From contig CM075987.1 in the NCBI GenBank assembly GCA_038087875.1, positions 23,872,001 to 23,936,000 on the forward strand: a stretch of 64,000 nucleotides of DNA. Direction: 5' to 3'. How positions within the stretch are numbered: position 1 is the first letter of the stretch; every line of letters begins with the position of its first letter. Positions 8,926 through 53,191 of this stretch are shown here, piece by piece. Under the pieces are notes generated by a model, which worked only from the letters and a program-made list of their open reading frames with translations, ran no database searches and was not told the DNA's origin. Source of the DNA: Malacoraja senta. Lineage: Eukaryota. The translations under genes were made by a program, and so were the position numbers.

Positions 8926-9201
8926 TTTGTGTCTATCTTTTGTCATTAACCAGCATCTGCAGTTCCTTTTCATTACATTTGATTTATTTTTATTTGGTTA
9001 GGGAGGGTATTAAAGGTTATGGGAGCATGAGAATAAATGAACTTGAGATTGGAAATGATTTGATTGAAGAATAAAGAGATTCAATGGGATGAATGGCCTC
9101 CCATTGGCTTTGTGTGCAGTCGGTAAAGAAATAAGATCGATATGAAGTGTTTGATTGAGGTTGTTTGTGAGAATGGGTTCTGGCCGCCCAGCAAACAGTA
9201 C

Positions 9202-9345
9202 CTGAAAGTGAGTGCTGAAATGTTCATCAGCATTGACTATGTCCACCTCAACCCCATCCTTGACAAGGACAGTCTTCACCTTCATGCCAGCAAGGTGAGT
9301 GTGGAGCTGTGAGGCAAAGATCTGGATCCCAGACCGAGGCAGCGT
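9202..9345 (-). CDS. DBH: DBH exon 7 (copper-binding HTH motif)
   Basis: 144 nt, ag/gt; TLPRSGIQIFASQLHTHLAGMKVKTVLVKDGVEVDIVNADEHFSTHFQ. Confidence 0.95.
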
Positions 9346-12981: not shown

Positions 12982-13311
12982 CCCAAAGTAGGAGTTGTGG
13001 CCATCACTCCACAGAATGGCCAGGTCTGCGTTCCTCATGTCCCCTCGGTCAGACATCCCAAACAACATGCCAAACTTCAGCTCTGTGACGGCCAGGCAGA
13101 AATACACGGCTTGCTGGGCATAGCTGACGTTCCAGCTCAGCTTGGCCAGTCCCTGAGGGTCCAGCGGTACTTGGTAGGGGAAGGGGCTCCGCTTGGGGGC
13201 GGTGGGACTGAAGCACAGCACCAGCATCACCACGATGACCAGCAGGGTGGTCATGTAGATGGAGACGGTCTCCCGTAGCCTCATGTTGCGGCAACACTCT
13301 GCCTCCCGCAT
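12982..13311 (-). CDS. DBH: Dopamine beta-hydroxylase, coding exon 1 (signal anchor plus start of DOMON domain)
   Basis: Translates MREAECC...SPFPYQVPLDPQGLAKLSWNVSY...LFGMSDRGDMRNADLAILWSDGHNSYFG, matching the vertebrate DBH N-terminus. Ends at a gtaagt donor, phase 0. The start could be a downstream Met. Confidence 0.95.
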
Positions 13312-21362: not shown

Positions 21363-22030
21363 TCAAGTCAAGTCAAGTCACATTTATTTATATAGCACAT
21401 TTAAAAAACAACTCTCGTTGGCCAAAGTGCTTTACATTTGTTATAAGAATAGTATAAACAAACAAACTACATACATATAGCCCTCGCTCAGAGGACGTCA
21501 AGAAAGGCTTGGGAGTATAGATACGTTTTTAGTCTTGACTTAAAGGAGTCGATGGAGGGGGCAGTTCTGATGGGAAGGGGGATGCTGTTCCACAGTCTAG
21601 GAGCTGCAACCGCAAAGGCGCGGTCGCCCCTGAGCTTATGCCTAGACCGTGGGGTATTCAGCAACCCCAAGTCAGCCGATCTGAGGGGCCTGGAGGTAGA
21701 GTGGTGGGTGAGAAGACTTATGATGTAGGTGGGGGCAAGCCCATTGAGGGCTTTGTAGACATAGAGGAGGATCTTGAAATGTATACGGAACCGCACAGGG
21801 AGCCAGTGGAGAGAGGCCAGGATCGGGGTGATGTGGTCCCTTTTTCGGGTGCCCGTCAGGAGTCTCGCTGCAGCGTTTTGGACGAGTTGCAGGCGGGACA
21901 GGGAAGATTGGCTGATGCCAGTGTAAAGGGAGTTGCAGTAATCTAGGCGGGAGGAGATAAATGTGTGGATGATCTTTTCGAGGTCATCAAAGTGGAGGAA
22001 TTGTTTTATTTTAGCTATCGTCCGAAGCTA
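21363..22030 (-). mobile_element. L2 3' fragment, same family as 51916-53191
   Basis: Nearly identical reverse complement of ~52520-53190. Confidence 0.9.
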
Positions 22031-35894: not shown

Positions 35895-37263
35895 TTATAT
35901 TATGGATACCATTAATCAGTTAAAAACAGTGATACCCGCAATAAAAAAAATGTAAATATGAGTTATCGTTATGAAATTAATTTCAAAACTCTGCCTTGTG
36001 GTCAACAAACATGTTTATTATTATTTTTCATAATGTAATAGGTTTAAATATATACAAACTGTACATAAAATATTCCAATTGTCTTTTTTTCCATTTCCCC
36101 TAACTTCAAGTAGCCAGGGTAAATACTCTGGACTGAGTTAAAACTTAAGACTTCAACAGTATATCTGATTCATAAAATGCCTCTGGGAAAAAAAGGAAAT
36201 CACTTATCATTAATAATAATAGAATTATAAAATTACAGGTTACGTTATTAAATATCATAATAAAACATGATTGCCTCAGTCAGCCTGGGTTTTTTTTGCA
36301 CATGTTTACATGATTTATAACAGAAAAAAACATTATTTTCTTTATAAACTCACATCTGCATTTATCATTAACCATCGGAAAAGTGAAACAACTGGGATTA
36401 TCTGTAACAACCGGTAACATCATCCAATGATAAATCAGGAACAAAGATATTTGTGCAATATCACGAGGAGGAAGAGGATATCATGGAGTATTTATTTTCA
36501 CATGCACTTTGTCAGCAAAATGAAGGGTCTGGTTGGTGTCTTGAGTGCTGCTAGGTCAAATGTTGTATCAAAATTTTAACATAAATACTGGCAGATACAG
36601 TATAACTAAAATACTGGGAGGTCAAGTTATTTTCAGGTAGATCAGATGATTCCAATTTCAATACTGAAGCATGATATATGTGCGCTTGGGTAAAGTCATT
36701 ATCAAAGAAAATCAAAATTCTTTGACTGATGTAATAGCTGAATTTATTAATATTTTTTACGAGATGAAGATCTTTACTGTTACAATCTATGACTGTTATA
36801 CTATACCTCACAACAGACTGTCATTGGCTGTTAAACTGTGTCCTTTCTAAAGAGAAATTGTAGGGTTTAGAGCATTTTATCTGTGGAAAGTAAGAGGACT
36901 AAATATGATTACTAATGATCATAAAACAGAGTGATTGCTGGACACTCATTTCCTATCCAATACTACTTTTTGATGGAGAGTTATAGAATATCACATTTGA
37001 GAATACTGTGAAAAGCATCAGCAGATTCACCAGTTGCTGCCACAATGCAGATATTTATTGTACTGCTTTGAAGTAAAATTCACTGATAATAGGATCTAAC
37101 AAGGTTCAGGAATGTGTCAGAAACCTAAACACTGAACTAACATGAACTCCCAAAGGCTTAATGTGGTCTCAAGTGCAGACATACAGGTAGCACCAGGACA
37201 GACAGACTAAAGCTGAGGACAGGACTGACTGAGGAAAAGGCAATGCACTGAGGCTACTACTTT

Positions 37264-43239: not shown

Positions 43240-44139
43240 CCTGCTGTATTACCTACTCCCTCTCTGACCGTAAAGCTGTTCCACAGTGTCCTTGTGGAAC
43301 ACATCCTCTGATAGTGTAGGAAAGAACTGCAGATGCTGGTTTAAATCGAAGATAGACACAAAATGTTGGAGTAACTCAGTGGGACAGGCAGCATCTCTGG
43401 AGGGAAGGAATGGGCGATGTTTCGGGTCGAGAACCTTCTTCAGACGCCCTCTGAAGGATCAGTGAACTTATCTGGTTTTAATTGGACTGCGTGAAGAAGG
43501 AAAGTTAATCAGCTTAGAGACGTAGAAACATAGAAAATAGGTGCAGGAGTAAACCACCCGGCCCTTTGAGCCAGCACCGCCATTCAATATGATCATGGCT
43601 GATCATCCAAAATCAGTACCCCATTCCTGCTTTTTCCCCATATCCCTTGATTCCGTTAGCCCTAAGAGCTAAATCTAACTCTCTCTTGAAAATATCCAGT
43701 GAATTGGCCTCCACTGCCTTCTCTGGCAGAGAATTCCACACATTTACAACTCGGGGTGAAAACGTTTTTCCTCATCTCAGTCCTAAATGGCCTACCCCTT
43801 ATTCTTAAACTGTGACCCCTGGTTCTGGATCACAGTTTGGTTTGTGAAAGACGCAAAGTGCTAAAACAATATTATATCTTATAAGGGGCTTTTAGATAGG
43901 TTTATGGATATGGAGGGATATGGGTTATGTGCAGGCAGAGATTAGTTTAGTTTAGTTTAGTTTAGAGATGCAGCCCAACGAGTCCACACCGACCAGCGAT
44001 CCCCGCACACTAACACTATCCCACACACACTAGGGACAATTTTACATTTATACCAAGCCAATTAACCTACAAACCTGTAGGTCTTTGGAGTGTGGGAGGA
44101 AACCGAAGATCTCAGAGAAAACTCACGCAAGTCATGGGC

Positions 44140-44336
44140 TTCTTCTCCTTCTGTTCGACTCCATCTTGTTACAAGTGTTGACCTCGCTGTCATCGTCCGT
44201 CCTGAAAAGGACGCAAGCTTTCGGCGACAATCAGTGGAAGCCATCACTTGTCGCAATAGATGATGATGGCAGCAGAATTAGCTCAGGATACTTCCAGTTT
44301 CCAGCCCCGCCACGTGGGCGCTTCTGCTATGGGGCC
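44140..44336 (-). mobile_element. Short retroposon with a 5' HDV-like ribozyme and a GAA tail, inserted in a V-SINE
   Basis: 10-bp TSD AGTCATGGGC (44130-44139 / 44337-44346); the minus strand ends ...AGAAGGAGAAGAA; the host SINE resumes on both sides. Confidence 0.85.
44270..44336 (-). ncRNA. HDV-like (CPEB3-like) self-cleaving ribozyme, slightly degenerate
   Basis: P1 GGCCCC/GGGGCU, P2 AGCAGAA/UUCUGCU, P3 GCG/GGC (1 mismatch), L3 CCCACGU, GG for P1.1, weak P4, J4/2 GCUAA. Confidence 0.75.
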
Positions 44337-45699
44337 AGTCATGGGCAGAACGTACAAACTCCGTACAGACAAGCACCCATGGTCAGGATCGAACCCGTGT
44401 CTCTGGCAGTGTAAGGCAGTCGCTCTACCCCTGCGCCACCGTGCCGCCCCACTTTATTTTGGTATTATGTTTCGGCAAGGACATTGTGGGCCGAAGGGCC
44501 TGTACCTATGCTGTGCTGTCCTCTGTTCAATATTCTATTACATTGCTCGTTTGGGCTGAGAATAGTTTGCTCTTCTCTCTCGATCATGTTTTCAAGTACA
44601 AAATGACTCAACCCTCATTTAAATCATCAACTGTGTTTCTATATTCAGAGTTGTTGACAACCTACTCAATTGGAGCTAAATATTTGGCAATGAGAACAAT
44701 TCCAGATGGGGGTACTGTCGAAGTTTAATATGTAAAGGAGTTGGGAAGACTGCAACAAACAATTGGATAAAGAAAAGAGTGTTTATGATGAATGTTACGG
44801 TAGACTGACCCCATTTGCTTTGCATTTCTATGTCATGCATCCTTTTGTCTTGTGTTCTGTGACTCATTTCTGAATTGACATCAGTTGTCCTGCTATGTTC
44901 AAACATTGTGCTGCCCTATAACAAACTCGTGCTTCTTCCCAAGGTTCTCTGACTACCAGTCTTGTGAGCAGATTCCAGTTCTACTGGAAGCCAGGAATGA
45001 ACACTGTGTAAATATCACCAGTGCATTGTGTGTCAGGCGAATCAGAAAAAATAAACAACACATTAAAATGGCTGAAAATCCATCGCTTAGTTTAGTTTAG
45101 TTTAGAGATACAACGCGGAAACAGGCCCTACGGCTCACCGGGTCCGCGCCGACCAGCGATCCCCGCACTGTAGCACTATCCTACACACACAAGGGACAAT
45201 TGACAATTTTACCAGGCCAATTAACCTACAAACTTGTACGTCTTTGCAGCTCTCTCAGTCTGAAGAAGGGTCTCGACCTGAAACGTCACCTATTCCTTCT
45301 TTCCAGAGATGCTGGCTGACCCGCTGAGTTACTCCAGCGCTTTGTGTCTTCCTTCGGCGTAAACCAGCATCTGCAGTTCCTTCCTACACATGGTGATCTA
45401 AAGGTAGAGAGAACACAGAGTGAAATGAGTGTAAGTAGAGGAGAAACAAAATAATTTATTGGAAGTGAATCATTTCTAAGTGCAGAGACTGGTCATTATT
45501 CTCTTTATAAGTGAGTAATAATCTGGCTTTGCTTTTAGAAATGATTCACGTACAATAAATTATTTAGCATTGTTTTGGCTGTTGTGCAGGCAAAGTCAAA
45601 TTAATTTGTGTTGGAAGGAAAAAAGTTGCAAGTGTGGAAACCACACATTGCGTTGGATCATGGAAGCTCTCAACCACAAGCTATCTACACCCACCATTT

Positions 45700-46230: not shown

Positions 46231-49200
46231 TGTAAATAGCCCGTTCTAAGCTCCCCCCAGTCTAGTTTCAGTCAATAAAATACTGAATCAAGCACTTGAG
46301 CAACTAAACTTTATTTGGGATAACACAACACAAATTCCCCTATACAATACCTAACCACCGCGGGTTCGATCCTTGTATCTGCTTGGCCAAGCCCTTCTAG
46401 CCTCGTGCAAGCAGAGACACTCAAAAAGGTCACGCAGTCTTCAATTAAATTTAATATGTTTGGTATAGTGATTTGAGGTTTTGTAATGTACAGTAATATA
46501 TCATCCGCGTATAAAGATATTTTATTATATGAATCTTTAGTATTATACCCATGGATATCAGGGTGTATTCTAATTTTTTCTGCTAGCGGTTCAATAATAA
46601 GTGCAAACAGCTGTGGTGATAATGAGCATCCTTGTCTATTTCCCCTTGATAGTTGAAATTTTGAGGATAATATATTATTAGTTAATATTCTAGCTGTAGG
46701 TTTATTATATAATAATTTTATCCATAGAATAAAATTCTCTCCCAGTTGGAATTTTTGTAATACTTTATCCATATAATTCCATTCTACTTGGTCAAATGCT
46801 TTTTCAGCATCCAGCGAAATAATTGATAATTCTTGTTCTTCAGATTTGTATGAGTGCATTATGTTGAGTAAACGTCTCATATTGTTAGAAGAGTATCTCT
46901 TAGGGATAAACCCCGTCTGATCTGGGTTTATTAATTTACTAATATATTTACTTAATCTAGCTAATATTTTTGCTAATATTTTTTGATCTGTGTTTAACAA
47001 TGCTATAGCTCTATATGAACCCGGTTCTTCTATATCTTTGTCTTTCTTAAGTATTAGTGTAATCGTTGATTCCGTTAATATATCAGGTAGTATTTGTTTT
47101 TTTAAAGCATATTGGTACATTTTTTGTAATCTTGGTATTATTTTATCATAAAAGCTTTTATAAAATTCATTAGTAAATCCATCTGGACCTGGTGTTTTTC
47201 CATTCTTTAGTGAGTTTATTGTATCTTCTAATTCCTTAATTGAGATTTGTGCACCCAATTCCTCTTGTTCCTTCAACTCTAACTTTGGAAGATTACAATT
47301 ATCCAAAAACTTTGTGATTTTATTGGAATCAATTGTCGTTTTAGATGTGTACAAATTCTCATAAAATTGCGCAAATCTTTTATTAATATCCTTCGGTGTT
47401 GTTAATAATTTCCCTTTATCTGATTTAATCTTTGGGATAGTATGTTCCTTTTCTCGTTTTTTTAGCTGGCGAGCCAAGAGTTTATGCGGTTTATCCCCAA
47501 ATTCAAAGTGCTCTTGTTTTGTAATTTGAAAAAGTCTTATAAGTTTGGCTGATAATAGTTTATTTAATTTAAATTTCAAAATTATTATTTTATTATGTTT
47601 GTCTATTGATGGATCTTTAGCATTATCTATATCCATTTGTCTAATAAGTTCTTCTAACTGTCTTTGTTCATTCTTATTCTTTTTATTTTGAAAAGCTTGA
47701 TATGAAATTATAATACCTCTAATGTATGCTTTAAAAGATTCCCATAATACAGTAGCCGATATATCTGGAGTATCATTTATTTGAAAAAAGGCATCCATTT
47801 GTTCTTTTAAATATATACTCGCTTGTGGATCTTTTAGGATTTGAGAATTAAATCTCCAAAACGATTTATTCTTAGACATTCCTTCCAGTTTTAAAAAGAA
47901 AGTTAGTGGAGAATGGTCTGAGATCGAATTTGTATGGTATGTTGGGTTAAATGTTTGAGGGATTAATTTTGTATCCAGCAGGAAGTAATCTATATGTGAG
48001 TATGTTTTGTGTACCTTTTCTGGATATAGAATAAATTGGAATAAGAGTGAAATTATGTCAATAAAACCGAAAGATTCAACACATCTTCTAAAATTCCCTT
48101 TTAAAATAGCTACAGAAAAATTTAAATACTTGGGAATTGAAATTACTAGAACATATCAAGGTATGTTTAAGGCAAATTTTGATCCACTACTTAATAAATT
48201 AAACACACTAATTAAATTTTGGAAAACGCTCCCGATGTCTTTAATAGGCCGAATAAATGCAATAAAAATTATCTTTCTACCGCAAATTTTATACCTATTT
48301 CAATCGATTCCTATATACTTACCAAAGAAGTTTTTTCTTAAATTGGACTCAGATATCACTAATTTTATATGGGACTATAAATCACATAGAATACAAAAAA
48401 CTCACTTGAATAAACCTAAAGTATTAGGGGGTTTAGCACTACCTAATTTCATGTATTATTATTGGTCAGTAAATATTAAAAATATGATTCAACTGATGGA
48501 TAACTCCGCCCAGCAAGTGGACTGGATTGTAATGGAGAAAGAGGATTGCTCCTCTGGAAACATTGGAGCGATCCTCCTCTCACCAATGAAACTGAATAAT
48601 ATAAATTATAATAAGAACCCAATTATCCATAGTACAATCCGAATTTGGAAACAAATAAAACAAAATTTAAAATTAAGAAATTTATCACTATTATCTCCCA
48701 TAGTTAATAACCCTTTGTTTAATCCCTCTATTATAGATAAATCTTTTATACATTGGGATAGACTAGGAATTAAAACGTTCGGTGACCTGTATGAAACTGG
48801 AAAATTACTTTCATTTCAACAATTACAAATAAAATATAAACTCGGAAATAATCAATATTTTAAATATTTTCAAATATGCGACTATTTGAAAAAATATACA
48901 AAAGATCATTATAATAACCCAGTAGATGTATTGGATGACAATGCAGATAAAAGCTGAATCAGCAAACTTAATATCATATTTGTATAATATTATCTTAAAT
49001 GTAGAAATACCATCTACGGAAGGTATCAGAAGAGACTGGGAACAAGAGTTAGCTATTAAAATTTCAAAGGAAAGGTGAAATGAACACTTATTAAACGTGC
49101 ATAAATGTTCGATTAATGTAAGACACACTTTAATACAATTTAAAATTTTACATAGATTATATTATTCCAAAACTAAAATCCATAAAATTTTCCCAAATGT

Positions 49201-50580
49201 ATCATCCATTTGTGATAACTGTCAATCCCAAGAAGCTACTATAGCGCACTCATTTGTTTTCTGTACAAAAATTCAAAAATTTTGGAATGAAATTTTCGAA
49301 ATCTTTACAAAATTATTTAAAATAAAACTGATACCCAAAGCAGAATGGATTATCTTCGGAATAACGGAAGATGGTCCAGAACTAAATGTGTTTCAAAAGA
49401 AATTAATAGACTATGGGTTAATAACTGGAAAAAAGCTAATCCTAAAATTTTGGAAGAAAGCTCCAATACCATCTATAAACATGTGGATTTCAAATATGTT
49501 CAAAACATTACACCTAGAAGAGATAAGACTCCTCCTGGCAGGTAAACCAGATCACTTCCATCTGACGTGGTCTGCATTTATAGAATTATTACAAATATAG
49601 GGTGCAAAGGTACCTTAAAAAAAAACTGAGGTCAGGTAAAGGGTGATGATAGCTGGAAAGTTGGTATGTCCCATTTGCGTAATGCTCATAAAAACTATTT
49701 GTTTTTCTCTTCCTCCTCTTTCTCTTTCTCCTTCTTTTCTAGGGTCTATTTCTTAACTCTTTTTCTTTTGTTTTTAATTTTGTTCTTATAGGGTCTTCGT
49801 TCTGTCTTGTTGTCACACTTTCTACACTTTCACTTTTTCCTTCACTTTCTTCTTTCTTTCAATCTTATCCTTTCCTTTTACTAGTGTAAAAAACAAATGG
49901 AGTACATTAATCGTAAGAAGATATAAGTTACGAGTACTGATGTATGTGGTTGTAATGTAATGTACTTCTAATAAATAAAAAATAAAAAAATAAAAATAAA
50001 AAAAAGGTCACGCAGCCCCTAGCGTTCTCCCAGAAGATCAACATCGGACCTCGTGGGAGCTACTTTTTATTGGTCCCCGAACCTTGAGGGGCCGAACCAA
50101 ATAGGGGTGGTCTATATACAGCCCAATAACAAATATCAATTAACACAGTACATGATAGACAGTTCCCCAACCCAATAACACAGTAACCAATACAATGTAT
50201 CCGACAAAGTTTCTAGATGGAAGTTGACAGAGATGAATTATGCAACATGTGCCTCGAGATTCAGACAACCCAGAAAAAGCTCAACATCTTAACCAATCAA
50301 CAACTATCCAAATAAGGCTTTGTAACATTATTTATACTATGTATTTCTCGTTTGCATTGACCCAATCAGTTTCATGCAAGTTACACCTCATTGTAAGAAT
50401 CTGCAGATGTCCCATTCTTTTCCTGCAGCTCTTATCTAGGCCACAGACAAACTGGCACCATTCAGCAGCTTGTCCCAGTTCTGCAAAAGGCACATTTAAC
50501 TTGACCAAAATGGCCTAGCAGCACAGAAGCCTTTACTCAATTTTAATGTCCTGGCTGCTACAATTTGGCCAGGATTAATA
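46231..50580 (-). mobile_element. Solo LTR (~770 bp; ERV or Gypsy type), split by an L1
   Basis: 4-bp TSD ATTG (46227-46230 / 50581-50584); minus-strand termini TA(degenerate TG)...CA; minus-strand AATAAA near 46310. Confidence 0.6.
46438..50000. mobile_element. 5'-truncated, 5'-inverted L1-clade LINE (ORF2: end of endonuclease, RT, C-terminal Cys-rich region)
   Basis: Minus strand 46438-~48003 encodes the RT (GKTPGPDGF, SLDAEKAFD, RQGCSLSP, LYADD) up to ...LNLIED. Plus strand from ~48005 continues TFSGYRINWNKSE through the 3' UTR and poly(A). 15-bp TSD AAAAAGGTCACGCAG at 46423-46437 / 50001-50015. Confidence 0.93.
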
Positions 50581-50633: not shown

Positions 50634-51915
50634 AGTCAGCAGATATATTTAAGGCAGAGATAGATAGATTCCAGATTGGTGCGGGTGTCGGAGATTATGG
50701 GGAGAACAGAACGGCAGGCGAATGGAGTTAGGAGAGATAGATCAGCCATGAATGAATGGCAGTAGACTTGATGGGCCGAATGGCCTAATTCTACTCCTAT
50801 CACATGATCATGACCATTTACCCGCGCCTCCCACCCCAACGCCATTCTCTGACCCATTGATTCACACATCTCCAACCACAATATATTCAATCCCACTCTC
50901 CACTCCCACCAACCCGACTATACCCCAGGTCAATCCCAACAACCAGAACACAACTCTGCTTGCCACCCACACTGCATTATTATGTCTTCCCGATAATAAT
51001 GATTCCCCCAATTTGTTCTTCTTTGATGCTTCCAAACACCTATCCCTCCAGTGATAGATATTCATCTCCGATGACCCATGACCCGTCCACACCCAACATT
51101 CTCGCACCCCTCCCCCAATGTTCCCAGATGTGTGAGCTAACACTTGAGCAATTAGAGTCACAAAGTCACAGGGTCATGGAGCCATACAGCGTGGAAACAG
51201 GTCCTTCGGCCCAACACCGACCAACATGTCCCATCTACACTGGTCCCATCTGCCTGCGTTTGGCCCATATCCCTCTTTTTTTCCCCTTTTTTTTTCCTTT
51301 TCTTCTCTCCCACAAATATGTAATTACTGATTCTGTTCCATTCTGTTTGTAGTTTTTTTGCACAATTCGCAAGCATTGCCACTTTTCATTTCACTGCACA
51401 TCTCGTATGCGTATGTGACGAATAAACTTGACCTGACTTGACTTGACTTGAACCTGTCCTAACCATGTACCAGCTTCTTAAACGTTGTGACCGTACTTGC
51501 CTCAACTCCTCCGGCAGCACTGAATTCTCTTCATTCAGTTCACAGCCAAATCTGCCGATCTTGGTGCGTGTCTGTAATATTATATTCACCTTTGTCTCTG
51601 TAAAATGTTCTTGCAGAGAAGTGCCATCTCAGTGTCACCTGTCCAGTTCAGTTCAATTCCTCCACAAATGATCTAAACCTGCTTGCAAGAAGGGCTTTCT
51701 TGGCAATGTCACAGACATAGAAATGATTTGTTATCCTGAGTACATCCTGTGACCCAAATGTCTCCATATTCCCTGGTCACATCTGACGGGGAGTGTTATA
51801 CTTCGTCATGCAGCCCAGACCATCACACAAACCAACCTCCCTTCCATTGAATCCGTTTATACCACAATGCTGCCTCGGCAAGGCCAGCAGCACAATCAAG
51901 GACGAGTCGCATCCT

Positions 51916-53191
51916 GACTCTGGCGACTGTGCAATCCTGCTCCTTCTTGACCTCAGCGCAACATTTGATACTGTCGACCACACCATCCTAATTGACCGTC
52001 TACGGTACGGGGTTGGTATTGATGGCACTGCCCTGAGCTGGTTCATCTCCTACCTCAAAGGTAGGAGTTTCTCGACTAACATAGGCAACTCTTTCTCCTC
52101 CCCAGCTAATCTCTGCTGTGGGGTTCCACAAGGTTCCATCCTTGGCCCCATTCTCTTCTCCTTGTATATGCTCCCCTTAGGCCAAGTCATTGAAAGGCAC
52201 GGCATTTCCTTCCATTGCTACGCAGACGATACACAACTCTATCTCCCCCTGAAGCCCCAAAACCAATCAAATCTGCTTAAACTTACCCGCTGCCTCGAGG
52301 ATATAAAGTGTTGGATGGCCCAGAACTTCCTCCAACTGAACGAGAGTAAGTCTGAGGTCATCCTTCTCGGCCTCTCGGACTCAATCATAATGATAGCAGG
52401 CAGCCTTGGAAGCCTTACCCCGCTACTCAAACCTCACGTGAAAAACCTTGGCGTGATATTTGACTCAGCACTGAAATTTGACAAACAAGTCAATGCCGTG
52501 GTAAAAGCTAGCTTCTTTCAGCTTCGGACGATAGCTAAAATAAAACAATTCCTCCACTTTGATGACCTCGAAAAGATTATCCACACATTTATCTCCTCCC
52601 GCCTAGATTACTGCAACTCCCTTTATACTGGCATCAGCCAATCTTCCCTGTCCCGCCTGCAACTGGCCCAAAACGCCGCAGCGAGACTCCTGACGGGCAC
52701 CCGAAAAAGGGACCACATCACCCTGATCCTGGCCTCTCTCCACTGGCTCCCTGTGCGGTTCCGTATACATTTCAAGATCCTCCTCTATGTTTACAAAGCC
52801 CTCAATGGGCTTGCCCCCACCTACATTAAAAGTCTTCTCACCCACCATTCCACCTCCAGGTCCCTCAGATCGGCCGACTTGGGGTTGATGAATATCCCGC
52901 GGTCTAGGCATAAGCTCAGGGGCGACCGCGCCTTTGCGGTTGCAGCTCCTAGACTGTGGAACAGCATCCCCCTTCCCATCAGAACTGCCCCCTCCATCGA
53001 CTCCTTTAAGTCAAGACTAAAAACTTATCTATACTCCCAAGCCTTTCTTGACGTCCTCTGAGCGAGGGCTATATGTATATATGTATGTAGTTTGTTTGTT
53101 TATATTATTCTTATAACAAATGTAAAGCACTTTGGCCAACGAGAGTTGTTTTTTAAATGTGCTATATAAATAAATGTGACTTGACTTGACT
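51916..53191 (+). mobile_element. L2-clade LINE, 5'-truncated, with an open RT frame, inserted in a Rex1 fragment
   Basis: [42 protein letters not shown]; (GACTT)n tail. Confidence 0.93.

What the first reader, a model, noticed from the sequence alone, without database searches (positions are those of the whole stretch)
44130..44346. SINE-like retroposon headed by a CPEB3-like HDV ribozyme
Seen: a 197-bp insertion with a 10-bp TSD and a GAA-type tail, and no tRNA A/B boxes. From its first nucleotide the minus strand reads GGCCCC AU AGCAGAA GCG CCCACGU GGC GGGGCU GG AAACUGGAAGUAUCCUGAG CUAA UUCUGCUG. This fits the HDV nested double pseudoknot: G1.U wobble P1, 7-8 bp P2, P3/L3, CC:GG P1.1, and a candidate catalytic C in CUAA at 44281. 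Known: HDV-like ribozymes process the 5' ends of R2/RTE-type retroelements. P2, P3 and L3 closely resemble the mammalian CPEB3 ribozyme as I recall it (AGCAGAAGCG..CACGU.GC...AAUUCUGCUG). Inference: this is a non-autonomous family that releases itself from host transcripts by self-cleavage instead of using Pol III, is probably mobilised by an RTE LINE, and may relate to the origin of the CPEB3 ribozyme. This copy has mismatches in P3 and P4 and may be inactive.
Basis: partly seen in the sequence, partly recalled or inferred. Interest (0 to 1): 0.88.

Follow-up and report, generated by a model that had tools for sequence, protein, structure and literature searches.

The report
Ribozyme-headed retroposon, CPEB3-type, in a skate
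A 197-base jumping element in a skate-like fish genome starts exactly at the predicted cut site of a self-cutting RNA whose sequence closely matches a ribozyme so far reported only in one mammalian gene, which suggests where the mammalian ribozyme came from.

Summary
Window 44336..44140 (minus strand) is a 197-bp retroposon with an exact 10-bp target-site duplication and a GAA-type tail. It sits inside a tRNA-like host SINE. Its first 67 nt match one Rfam family only, the mammalian CPEB3 ribozyme (25.5 bits, below the cut-off of 35).

The genome holds roughly 2,000 candidate copies. In a sample picked by the 3' half alone, 16 of 20 start at position 1 and none has family homology upstream. The family majority restores P3; the P4 mismatch is family-wide.

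The same genome has at least five more CPEB3-type ribozyme families. 39 of 60 listed matches exceed the Rfam cut-off (best 64 bits). P1 and P2 covary across families.

One family heads a 3.1-kb RTE-like LINE. It ends in GACACGAA plus (AAG)n, as the SINE does. An unrelated metagenome RTE relative has the same head and 3' box.

Best reading: a non-autonomous ("bipartite") RTE derivative. It is probably released from read-through transcripts by self-cleavage and copied by the RTE enzyme. Cleavage itself is not shown.

The kind is known. CPEB3-type ribozymes outside mammals appear unreported, and this makes a retroposon origin of the mammalian ribozyme testable.

The parts
44337..44346 (-). 5' copy of the target-site duplication (gcccatgact)
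   Evidence: identical 10-mer at 44139-44130. TSDs of 6-13 bp were found by exact match in 20 of 30 family copies.
44270..44336 (-). CPEB3-type HDV-like ribozyme, positions 1-67 (G1 = 44336)
   Evidence: RF00622 25.5 bits; own model R1 65.8 bits (this copy was among the sequences R1 was built from). Family copies score 27.3-39.6 bits on RF00622.
44331..44336 (-). P1 5' strand GGCCCC. It pairs with 44303-44308 (GGGGCU), with G1.U34 at the predicted cleavage site.
   Evidence: sequence. P1 columns show compensatory changes in 4 of 7 pairs across families.
44322..44329 (-). P2 5' strand (U8)AGCAGAA. It pairs with 44270-44277.
   Evidence: helix 2 has 94.9% of cells paired and 4 of 7 pairs with changes on both sides.
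44309..44321 (-). P3 (GCG/GGC in this copy; GCG/CGC in the family) and loop L3 (CCCACGU here; UCCACGU in the family)
   Evidence: this copy carries U19C (44318) and C26G (44311). Reads and contigs of all 4 runs show the family letters at both places.
44301..44302 (-). J1/4 GG, candidate P1.1 partners of C20 and C21 in L3
   Evidence: sequence. Families with L3 UCC have GG here (F; metagenome L086). Families with L3 UUC have GU.
44282..44300 (-). P4 hairpin region (CUGGA AGUA UCCUG with an internal U.U)
   Evidence: the MFE fold of a majority-type copy gives this hairpin. The mismatch is family-wide.
44281..44281 (-). candidate catalytic C (C56) in J4/2 GCUAA
   Evidence: It aligns with the C of GCGAA in the CPEB3 model (alignment). 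That this C is the catalytic residue is recalled, not from a call, and catalysis was not tested.
44270..44277 (-). P2 3' strand UUCUGCU(G)
44162..44269 (-). body of the element, with no ORF and no match to the LINE
   Evidence: only the ribozyme core and the last 18 nt match LINE A
44154..44161 (-). 3' box GAGTCGAA (family majority GACACGAA), the conserved 3' terminus of this RTE lineage
44140..44153 (-). degenerate (GAA)n tail CAGAAGGAGAAGAA
44130..44139 (-). 3' copy of the target-site duplication
43942..44450 (-). host tRNA-like SINE that received the insertion (context only)
   Evidence: sequence. One search shows very high repeat depth on both sides of the insertion and joints that skip it.

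Best explanation
The element is a short non-autonomous retroposon of the RTE lineage. In Kojima's terms it is a 'bipartite non-autonomous LINE': a LINE-type 5' head and a LINE-type 3' end with no coding part. It is SINE-like in size but has no Pol III head.

Its head is a CPEB3-type HDV-like self-cleaving ribozyme.

Proposed cycle:
- A source copy is transcribed as part of a longer host or read-through transcript (inferred).
- The ribozyme cuts just 5' of G1, which gives the RNA its exact 5' end (inferred from fold, covariation and the position of the 5' ends; not shown biochemically).
- The reverse transcriptase/endonuclease of an RTE-like LINE recognises the 3' box GACACGAA plus the (AAG)n tail. 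That LINE carries the same kind of ribozyme and the same 3' end.
- It copies the RNA into a nicked target by target-primed reverse transcription. The result is full-length copies with 9-13-bp target duplications (TSDs, tails and the shared 3' end are shown).

The copy in the window is an ordinary, slightly decayed insertion. With two changes in P3/L3 it is probably a poor ribozyme itself.
For: Anatomy: 197 bp, exact 10-bp TSD, GAA-type tail.

Family size: 1997 and 1845 first-look candidates with whole-element and 3'-half queries. The 40 scored each time were 92-100% and 98-100% identical.

TSDs: 20 of 30 copies by exact match, with (GAA)n tails.

5' ends: 29 of 30 best copies start at GGCCCC. 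Among 20 copies picked by the 3' half only:
- 12 start at GGCCC,
- 3 start at AGCCCC,
- 1 starts at G1 and has an internal deletion,
- 2 (a duplicated pair) have a mutated start,
- 2 lack or have lost 12-19 nt.
None shows family homology upstream of position 1.

Ribozyme: only RF00622 matches. The window copy scores 25.5 bits and six other copies score 27.3-39.6 bits. The majority sequence has an intact P3.

Covariation across six families (34 sequences), for P1+P2+P3:
- 90.1% of cells are paired, against 37-54% in slid registers.
- 89 cells are changed on both sides, against 30.3 +/- 6.2 in shuffles (0 of 500 reach it).
- P2 has 4 of 7 pairs with compensatory changes, one of them with three pair types. 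P1 has 4 of 7.

Partner: a 3.14-kb element with one 934-aa ORF (Exo_endo_phos + RVT_1). It starts with a CPEB3-type ribozyme and ends in GACACGAAAAG(AAG)n. The SINE shares with it the ribozyme core (18 nt) and the last 18 nt.

3' box: GACACGA(A/T) plus a trinucleotide repeat is also the 3' end of RTE relatives on metagenome contigs. That covers 5 distinct elements, in 8 of the 15 loci.

Independent example: one of those relatives, 51% identical in protein, carries a CPEB3-type ribozyme with the SINE's own L3, J1/4 and J4/2 letters. It scores 55.6 bits on RF00622 and 60.6 bits on a model built only from skate sequences.

Second short family: family E starts at G1 with 11-12-bp TSDs in 5 of 6 copies and ends in GACTCGATAAGAAG.
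Against: No cleavage assay exists.

RNA-seq: raw poly(A) RNA reads of a related species covered the element at depth 14-37 in both orientations. No pile-up of molecule starts was seen at G1 ('none' in table 6). About 6% of the run was read, and 5'-OH ends are poorly captured, so this is weak.

Folding energy: nested MFE folding is not better than shuffles (z = +0.66 for a majority-type copy, +0.14 for the window copy). This is expected for a pseudoknot but gives no support.

Uniform 5' ends would also follow from a fixed transcription start.

Dispersed copies show no conservation of the ribozyme: 5.0% divergence from the majority against 2.6% in the body.

Two sub-groups carry changes at key positions. 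G1->A occurs in 3 of 20 copies. C26G, which breaks a P3 pair, occurs in the window copy and 3 of 29 others. So elements with imperfect ribozymes either spread or arose repeatedly.

The partner link rests on an 8-nt box, the tail and the ribozyme type. The body of the SINE matches nothing in the LINE.

Only 40 of about 2,000 candidates were scored per search.
Confidence: 0.85

Rival explanations
1. The 5' end is set by a promoter, not by cleavage. The head acts as an internal Pol II or Pol III promoter, or a master copy sits behind a fixed start site. The ribozyme-like fold would then be a relic, or a secondary function as in the dual promoter/ribozyme Pr77 of trypanosome L1Tc/NARTc.
For: Uniform 5' ends fit a fixed start site as well. 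No start pile-up at G1 was seen in RNA reads. Sub-groups with G1->A or a broken P3 pair exist. A dual promoter/ribozyme is described for L1Tc/NARTc (PMC3383444, abstract seen).
Against: Compensatory changes keep P1 and P2 paired across six families and in an unrelated metagenome element. That needs selection on the RNA fold. No tRNA, 5S or 7SL-like head was found. The start coincides with the predicted cleavage site to the base in the LINE and in families E and F. A promoter role in addition to cleavage is not excluded.
Confidence: 0.08
2. The resemblance to the mammalian CPEB3 ribozyme is convergent. HDV-type catalytic cores are constrained, and similar letters arose independently in a fish retroposon lineage and in a mammalian intron.
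For: HDV-like ribozymes occur widely and may have arisen more than once (PMC8256844, passages seen). The window family F itself differs from the mammalian model in P1, J1/4, P4 and J4/2 and mostly scores under the Rfam cut-off.
Against: Published work says only about six nucleotides are invariant in the fold (PMC8256844 passage). Yet skate families match the mammalian model at 37-64 bits. Family C shares even the catalytically unconstrained P4 stem CAGAUUCU/GAAUCUG. Single decayed copies are 78-81% identical to the model consensus over 67 positions, by my count on the alignment. No other Rfam ribozyme family matches.
Confidence: 0.3
3. It is not a ribozyme at all: a chance match in a GC-rich repeat head.
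For: The window copy is below the Rfam gathering score (25.5 against 35). MFE z-scores are not significant.
Against: See the covariation control values, the independent hit on a metagenome RTE and the 39 of 60 genome matches above the curated cut-off.
Confidence: 0.02

Closest known systems
HDV-like ribozymes at the 5' ends of non-LTR retrotransposons (R2, RTE, R4, L1Tc/Ingi, LOA). Sources: Ruminski et al. 2011 and Eickbush & Eickbush 2010. The Ruminski paper is not held here, so it is cited through passages of PMC7936874, PMC3774820 and PMC5786205.
   Same: An HDV-type double-pseudoknot ribozyme forms the first ~70 nt of the element, with the predicted cleavage at the exact 5' junction. The element is RTE-like (single ORF with endonuclease + RT, ~3.1 kb).
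   Different: The ribozyme sequence here is of the mammalian CPEB3 type and matches RF00622 above its cut-off. I did not find this reported for any retrotransposon.
Bipartite non-autonomous LINEs of the RTE clade, e.g. MAR4_MD, RTESINE2 and WALLSI3 of marsupials (Kojima 2018, PMC5786205, passages seen)
   Same: A short ORF-less element with the 5' end type and the 3' end of an RTE and no Pol III-type head. Kojima already suggested the 5' ribozyme as the reason such elements keep the LINE 5' end.
   Different: Only the ribozyme core (18 nt) and the last 18 nt match the co-resident LINE. So it is not a simple internal deletion of that LINE. It probably derives from another RTE of the lineage, or its head and tail were acquired separately.
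R2 SIDEs of Drosophila (PMC3414825, abstract) and NARTc of Trypanosoma cruzi (PMC3383444, abstract)
   Same: Non-autonomous partners that keep the LINE's 5' ribozyme and its 3' recognition end.
   Different: Those belong to the R2 and Ingi/L1Tc clades. SIDEs insert only in rDNA. This family is dispersed, has variable TSDs and lives in a vertebrate.
Mammalian CPEB3 intronic ribozyme (Rfam RF00622; Salehi-Ashtiani et al. 2006, recalled; Bendixsen et al. 2021, PMC8233481)
   Same: The P2 sequence is the same (AGCAGAA/UUCUGCU), P3 is the same (GCG/CGC), and L3 differs by one letter. The predicted catalytic C holds the same place. The overall length is the same. Sister families in the genome also share P1, J1/4, J4/2 and the P4 stem.
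   Different: This is a multi-copy mobile element head in a cartilaginous fish, not a single conserved intronic locus. In family F, P1 is inverted to GGCCCC/GGGGCU and one pair shorter, J1/4 is GG, J4/2 is GCUAA, and P4 is unrelated.

Membership tests
HDV-like self-cleaving ribozyme (fold class) | P1 helix that begins at the cleavage-site nucleotide (G1, usually G.U) | tested here: met
   GGCCCC/GGGGCU with G1.U34. P1 columns are 85.6% paired, and 4 of 7 pairs show changes on both sides across families.
HDV-like self-cleaving ribozyme (fold class) | P2 pseudoknot closing the 3' end onto the strand after P1 | tested here: met
   7-8 bp are formed. 94.9% of cells are paired, 4 of 7 pairs are compensatory, and slid registers reach 37-54%.
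HDV-like self-cleaving ribozyme (fold class) | P3 (3 bp) with a 7-nt L3, and P1.1 between L3 and J1/4 | tested here: inconclusive
   P3 is intact in the family majority and broken at one pair in the window copy. P3 hardly varies, so there is little covariation. For P1.1, L3 UCC goes with J1/4 GG and L3 UUC goes with GU. That is one co-change, possibly a single event.
HDV-like self-cleaving ribozyme (fold class) | Catalytic C in J4/2 | tested here: met
   C56 (44281) aligns with the C of GCGAA in RF00622. That this C is the catalytic residue is recalled, not from a call. The position is kept in the family majority: 45 of 46 copies (variability line).
HDV-like self-cleaving ribozyme (fold class) | Site-specific self-cleavage giving 5'-OH at G1 | not testable with these tools
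   No assay was possible. The RNA reads gave no start pile-up at G1.
Rfam RF00622 CPEB3_ribozyme | Score at or above the gathering cut-off (35 bits) | tested here: not met
   The window copy scores 25.5 bits. Of 6 other family-F copies, 1 passes (39.6) and 5 score 27.3-34.4. Other families of the same genome pass: 39 of 60 listed matches, up to 64.2 bits.
Rfam RF00622 CPEB3_ribozyme | Single conserved locus in an intron of the CPEB3 gene of mammals | tested here: not met
   It is a dispersed repeat with about 2,000 candidates. The genome's DBH exon is 96% identical to a skate's and 47-58% to the mammals and other tetrapods listed. The window lies next to DBH, not CPEB3.
Non-LTR retroposon mobilised by target-primed reverse transcription | Target-site duplications of variable sequence, a 3' repeat tail, and many dispersed copies | tested here: met
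Bipartite non-autonomous RTE | 5' end and 3' end of an RTE LINE without its coding region | tested here: inconclusive
   The ribozyme type and the 3' box plus tail are shared with LINE A and with metagenome RTE relatives. Outside 18 + 18 nt there is no similarity to the LINE examined, and the true parent LINE was not found.
Classical SINE | Head derived from tRNA, 7SL or 5S RNA with an internal Pol III promoter | tested here: not met
   ARAGORN finds nothing. No tRNA, 5S or 7SL match was found at E<=10.
RTE clade (for the partner LINE A) | About 3.2-3.3 kb, a single ORF with AP-endonuclease and RT, and a very short 3' UTR ending in short tandem repeats (features recalled from Malik & Eickbush 1998, paper not seen) | tested here: met
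   The element is 3.14 kb. It has a 934-aa ORF with Exo_endo_phos, Exo_endo_phos_2 and RVT_1. In 2 of 3 copies the frame runs to about 30 nt from the end. The tail is (AAG)n.
RTE clade (for the partner LINE A) | Phylogenetic placement of the RT among named RTE elements | not tested
   No named RTE reference was available. The relatives found are unnamed or 'RT domain-containing' proteins of many animals, on contigs mostly 2.3-4.7 kb long.

The most novel reading that the evidence does not exclude
The mammalian CPEB3 intronic ribozyme is an exapted 5' head of a retroposon of this RTE lineage, either a LINE or one of its ribozyme-headed non-autonomous derivatives. It would have landed in the CPEB3 intron of an early mammal. 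The skate families and the metagenome element are living relatives of its ancestor. They supply the outgroups that Bendixsen et al. (2021) said were missing.
Probability: 0.55. Interest if true: 0.85.

Novelty: new member of a known kind. Interest (0 to 1): 0.7.

Why it matters
Ribozyme-headed RTE elements and their ORF-less derivatives are a known kind, so the mechanism is not new.

What seems new is the ribozyme's identity. The CPEB3 ribozyme is one of the very few self-cleaving RNAs of mammals. It has been linked to memory and is described as not found outside mammals (PMC8233481, passage seen).

Here the same sequence family forms the working head of a LINE and of several short retroposon families in a cartilaginous fish. 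It also heads an RTE relative from an unidentified organism. This has three consequences:
- It gives outgroups for reconstructing the ribozyme's history.
- It turns the question of where the CPEB3 ribozyme came from into a concrete comparison, between RTE 5' heads of mammals and the CPEB3 locus.
- It provides a natural set of covarying variants of this ribozyme, including a form without P4, for structure-function work.

Tried and rejected
- RNA evidence: the look-up of sequencing runs listed no holder on record as RNA. Only one raw RNA run, of a related species, could be laid.
- The search of earlier findings by sequence, by words (twice) and by place gave nothing that bears on this. The HDV hits were phage or other cases.
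- Papers not held: Ruminski 2011, Webb & Luptak 2011 and Webb 2009. Their content is cited second-hand or recalled, and they might already note a CPEB3 likeness of retrotransposon ribozymes. Supplements were not consulted.
- TSDs and ends of families B, C and D: no convincing TSD in 0 of 12 copies. There were two 8-mers, one of them 1 kb away, probably chance. Their extent is unknown.
- Other metagenome RTE relatives (L089-L096): no ribozyme hit with Rfam at E<=0.1, or with model R1 at E<=1. Of 4 distinct elements with upstream sequence, 1 has the CPEB3-type head.
- A weak R1 hit at window 37072-37150 (18.7 bits, E=0.1) lacks the L3 core and was dismissed.
- Protein Atlas: only 'RT domain' clusters, nothing on clade.
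- A parent LINE carrying the F-type head in this genome was not found.
- Whether this genome's own CPEB3 gene holds a ribozyme was not examined.
Full report
**1. What is at the site**

On the minus strand, window 44336..44140 is a 197-bp insertion. It is flanked by two exact copies of gcccatgact (44346-44337 and 44139-44130) and ends in CAGAAGGAGAAGAA. It splits a tRNA-like SINE whose two halves continue on either side (very high repeat depth and skipping joints).

With G1 = 44336 the parts are:
- P1: 1-6 with 29-34 (G1.U34)
- P2: (8)9-15 with 60-66(67)
- P3: 16-18 with 26-28
- L3: 19-25
- J1/4: G35 G36
- P4: a weak hairpin
- C56 (44281): in J4/2

An Rfam scan of 4.5 kb at E<=10 returned one ribozyme family only, the mammalian CPEB3 ribozyme. 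It scored 25.5 bits against a gathering score of 35, with E = 0.0012. ARAGORN finds no tRNA-like gene in 43900-44600.

**2. It is a repeat family whose 5' ends sit on G1**

The window's own assembly is 1.94 Gb. It gave 1997 first-look candidates for the whole element. The 40 that were scored were 92-100% identical.

In the 30 loci fetched, 29 begin with GGCCCC directly after unrelated flanks, and one has a 1-nt deletion in the C run. TSDs of 6-13 bp were found by exact match in 20 of 30, and the tails are (GAA)n.

That sample favours full-length copies. So I searched again with the 3' 100 nt of a majority-type copy (1845 candidates; 40 scored at 98-100%). I then fetched 20 places not seen before. 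Their 5' ends:
- 12 start at GGCCC.
- 3 start at AGCCCCTT, a sub-group with G1->A.
- 1 starts at G1 and has an internal deletion.
- 2 are a duplicated pair with a mutated start.
- 2 lack or have lost the first 12 and 19 nt.

No copy has family-related sequence upstream of position 1.

Across 46 distinct copies the mean distance from the majority is 5.0% in the ribozyme and 2.6% in the body. So the family is young, and the dispersed copies decay freely, fastest at CpGs.

**3. P3 and P4**

The majority has GCG UCCACGU CGC, which is an intact P3. The window copy carries U19C and C26G. All four runs laid on the window show the majority letters at 44318 and 44311. C26G is shared with L023, L026 and L030.

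The U.U mismatch in P4 is family-wide. A majority-type copy folds by MFE into P1 + P3 + P4, but no better than shuffles (z = +0.66). The window copy prefers another nested fold (z = +0.14). Thermodynamics therefore neither supports nor contradicts a pseudoknotted ribozyme.

**4. The wider picture in the same genome**

The Rfam CPEB3 model was run over the assembly. It listed 60 matches from 59 scored candidates, and 39 of them exceed the curated cut-off, with a best score of 64.2 bits.

The 30 loci fetched fall, by eye and by BLAST, into five further families:

| Family | Loci | Notes |
|---|---|---|
| A | 12 | long element |
| B | 3 | |
| C | 5 | |
| D | 4 | |
| E | 6 | no P4 |

All keep GCG-UUCACGU-CGC, J1/4 GU(C/U) and J4/2 GCGAA or GCUAA. 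Their P1, P2 and P4 sequences differ.

I aligned 34 sequences of families A-F and counted P1, P2 and P3:
- 90.1% of cells pair, against 37-54% when the partner is slid by 1-3 columns.
- 89 cells show changes on both sides, against 30.3 +/- 6.2 in shuffles (0 of 500 reach it).
- The covariation score is 0.462 against 0.223.
- P2 has compensatory changes in 4 of 7 pairs. One pair is C-G, U-A or A-U depending on family. P1 has 4 of 7.

One caveat applies. These counts are over sequences. The independent events are the differences between six families.

Family C shares even the P4 stem of the mammalian model (CAGAUUCU/GAAUCUG). By my count on that printed alignment, two decayed copies are 54 of 67 and 52 of 67 identical to the model consensus.

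Family E is a second clear short retroposon, 136-177 bp long. Its G1 abuts 11-12-bp TSDs in 5 of 6 copies, and its end is GGACTCGATAAGAAG. For B, C and D I could not define ends.

**5. The partner LINE**

Family A is a 3.14-kb element. Three copies align over 3.14 kb at 98% identity. In one copy there is a single 934-aa ORF starting 27 nt after the ribozyme. It carries Exo_endo_phos, Exo_endo_phos_2 and RVT_1.

The other two copies are interrupted. In them the frame runs to about 30 nt from the 3' end.

The element ends in ...AAAGACACGAAAAG(AAG)n. A TSD is visible in L061.

Size, single ORF, short 3' UTR and trinucleotide tail are the RTE hallmarks as I recall them from Malik & Eickbush 1998. 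A tree with named RTEs was not made.

Protein relatives at 46-63% identity occur in many animals, on contigs mostly 2.3-4.7 kb long.

The SINE shares with LINE A only AGAAGCGTYCACGTCGCG in the ribozyme and the last 18 nt, GACACGAAAAGAAGAAGA.

**6. Independent confirmation from elsewhere**

A scan of metagenome contigs with the LINE protein gave 15 loci.

GACACGA(A/T) followed by a trinucleotide repeat, (AAG)n, (TCA)n or (ATG)n, is the 3' terminus in 5 distinct elements there. It is also the terminus in 3 of 3 skate LINE copies. So the box on the SINE is a lineage signature rather than a chance 8-mer. The box reads GACACGAA in the majority, GACTCGAA in some copies and GAGTCGAA in the window.

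One of those elements is L086 (= L087, L088), 51% identical in protein. About 150 nt upstream of the protein match it has a CPEB3-type ribozyme scoring 55.6 bits on RF00622. It scores 60.6 bits on a model built only from the skate alignment.

This ribozyme combines the mammalian P1 (GGGGGCC/GGCCCCU) and P2 with the SINE's own L3 (UCCACGU), J1/4 (GG) and J4/2 (GCUAA). It is bounded by a TSD, TCCGAGTCTT.

The other three distinct elements with upstream sequence gave no ribozyme hit.

**7. Where the genome belongs**

A first coding exon of dopamine beta-hydroxylase lies in the window (12982-13284, minus strand). Its identities to named proteins:
- 96% to a skate protein
- 80-84% to other batoids
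- 67-73% to sharks
- 47-65% to the bony fishes and tetrapods listed, including 52-55% to the four mammals

The host is therefore a skate-like cartilaginous fish, not a mammal.

**8. RNA**

No run on record as RNA held the stretch. One raw poly(A) RNA-seq run could be laid. It comes from a species whose unique flank differs by about 7% (21 differences in 314 bases).

The element is covered at depth 14-37 in both orientations, against hundreds for the host SINE. No place where many molecules begin was reported.

This fits passive co-transcription. It gives no evidence for cleavage in vivo, and only weak evidence against it.

**9. Mechanism**

Shown:
- a dispersed, young, ORF-less family with TSDs and microsatellite tails
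- 5' ends on the first nucleotide of a fold that is kept by compensatory changes
- a co-resident RTE-like LINE with the same head type and the same 3' end

Inferred:
- transcription as part of longer RNAs
- self-cleavage 5' of G1
- recognition of GACACGAW plus the repeat by the RTE protein
- target-primed reverse transcription

**10. Comparison with what is known**

HDV-like ribozymes at the 5' ends of RTE and other LINEs are established (passages).

ORF-less 'bipartite non-autonomous LINEs' of RTE, Ingi and R2 are catalogued. The ribozyme has been proposed as the reason they keep the LINE's 5' end (Kojima 2018, passages). The kind is therefore known.

What I could not find in print is a CPEB3-type ribozyme in any retrotransposon or outside mammals. 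I searched, and read passages.

[quoted passage not shown] De la Pena et al. suggest in general terms that conserved vertebrate ribozymes were domesticated from mobile elements.

Three key papers were not held and may bear on this.

**11. Verdict**

This is a new member of a known kind.

Its interest comes from the CPEB3 connection. The mammalian ribozyme most plausibly descends from the head of an RTE-lineage retroposon, and that is now directly testable.

Noticed in passing
window 44337 and the base before G1 in loci L001-L030, L064-L083, L051-L060, L086: The base just upstream of G1 is T in about 25 of 28 distinct family-F insertions of the first sample, 8 of 11 of the second, 5 of 6 family-E copies, and the metagenome element. 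It lies inside the TSD, so it comes from the target. That points to a target-site or 5'-joining preference. It is unexplained.
   Followed up: partly
G000 loci L031-L060: There are at least five further families of CPEB3-type ribozymes in the same genome. They include a P4-less 53-nt form heading a ~170-bp retroposon (family E). Family C has a P4 stem that equals the mammalian one.
   Followed up: partly
L086 981-1053 and 4130-4150 (also L087, L088): An RTE relative on metagenome contigs from an unidentified organism carries a CPEB3-type ribozyme (55.6 bits). It ends in GACACGAA(TCA)n and has the TSD TCCGAGTCTT. It carries one extra G before the P1 strand.
   Followed up: partly
L061 3215, L062 3205, L063 3210; L089 3493, L090 3287, L091 4172, L093 2645: A conserved 3'-terminal box GACACGA(A/T) sits directly before a trinucleotide microsatellite in RTE relatives that are only 46-52% identical in protein. 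It is probably the RT recognition signal.
   Followed up: partly
L066, L069, L072 (start AGCCCCTT); window, L023, L026, L030 (C26G): Two sub-groups of family F share changes at key ribozyme positions: G1->A, and a broken P3 pair. Either source copies with imperfect ribozymes spread, or the changes recurred.
   Followed up: no
window 12982-13284 (-) and 9010-9345 (-): These are exons of a dopamine beta-hydroxylase gene. The retroposon lies about 31 kb upstream of the first coding exon.
   Followed up: partly
window 45444-45570: A long AT-rich hairpin matches several miRNA precursor models far below their cut-offs (mir-627 at 34.8 bits against 86). It is probably an inverted-repeat element, not a known miRNA.
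   Followed up: no
window 46311-49600 and 51787-53061, 21488-22027: Large fragments of other LINE reverse transcriptases lie here: an L1-like ORF of 614 aa and CR1/L2-like fragments. They are unrelated to the RTE described here.
   Followed up: no
window about 10.9-11.2 kb and 37.2-37.6 kb: Runs of N (read as X in the ORF list) mark assembly gaps or withheld stretches.
   Followed up: no
L041 (G000:C8:937615-937735): One LINE A copy has a partial tandem duplication of the ribozyme core, seen as two RF00622 matches 8 nt apart.
   Followed up: no
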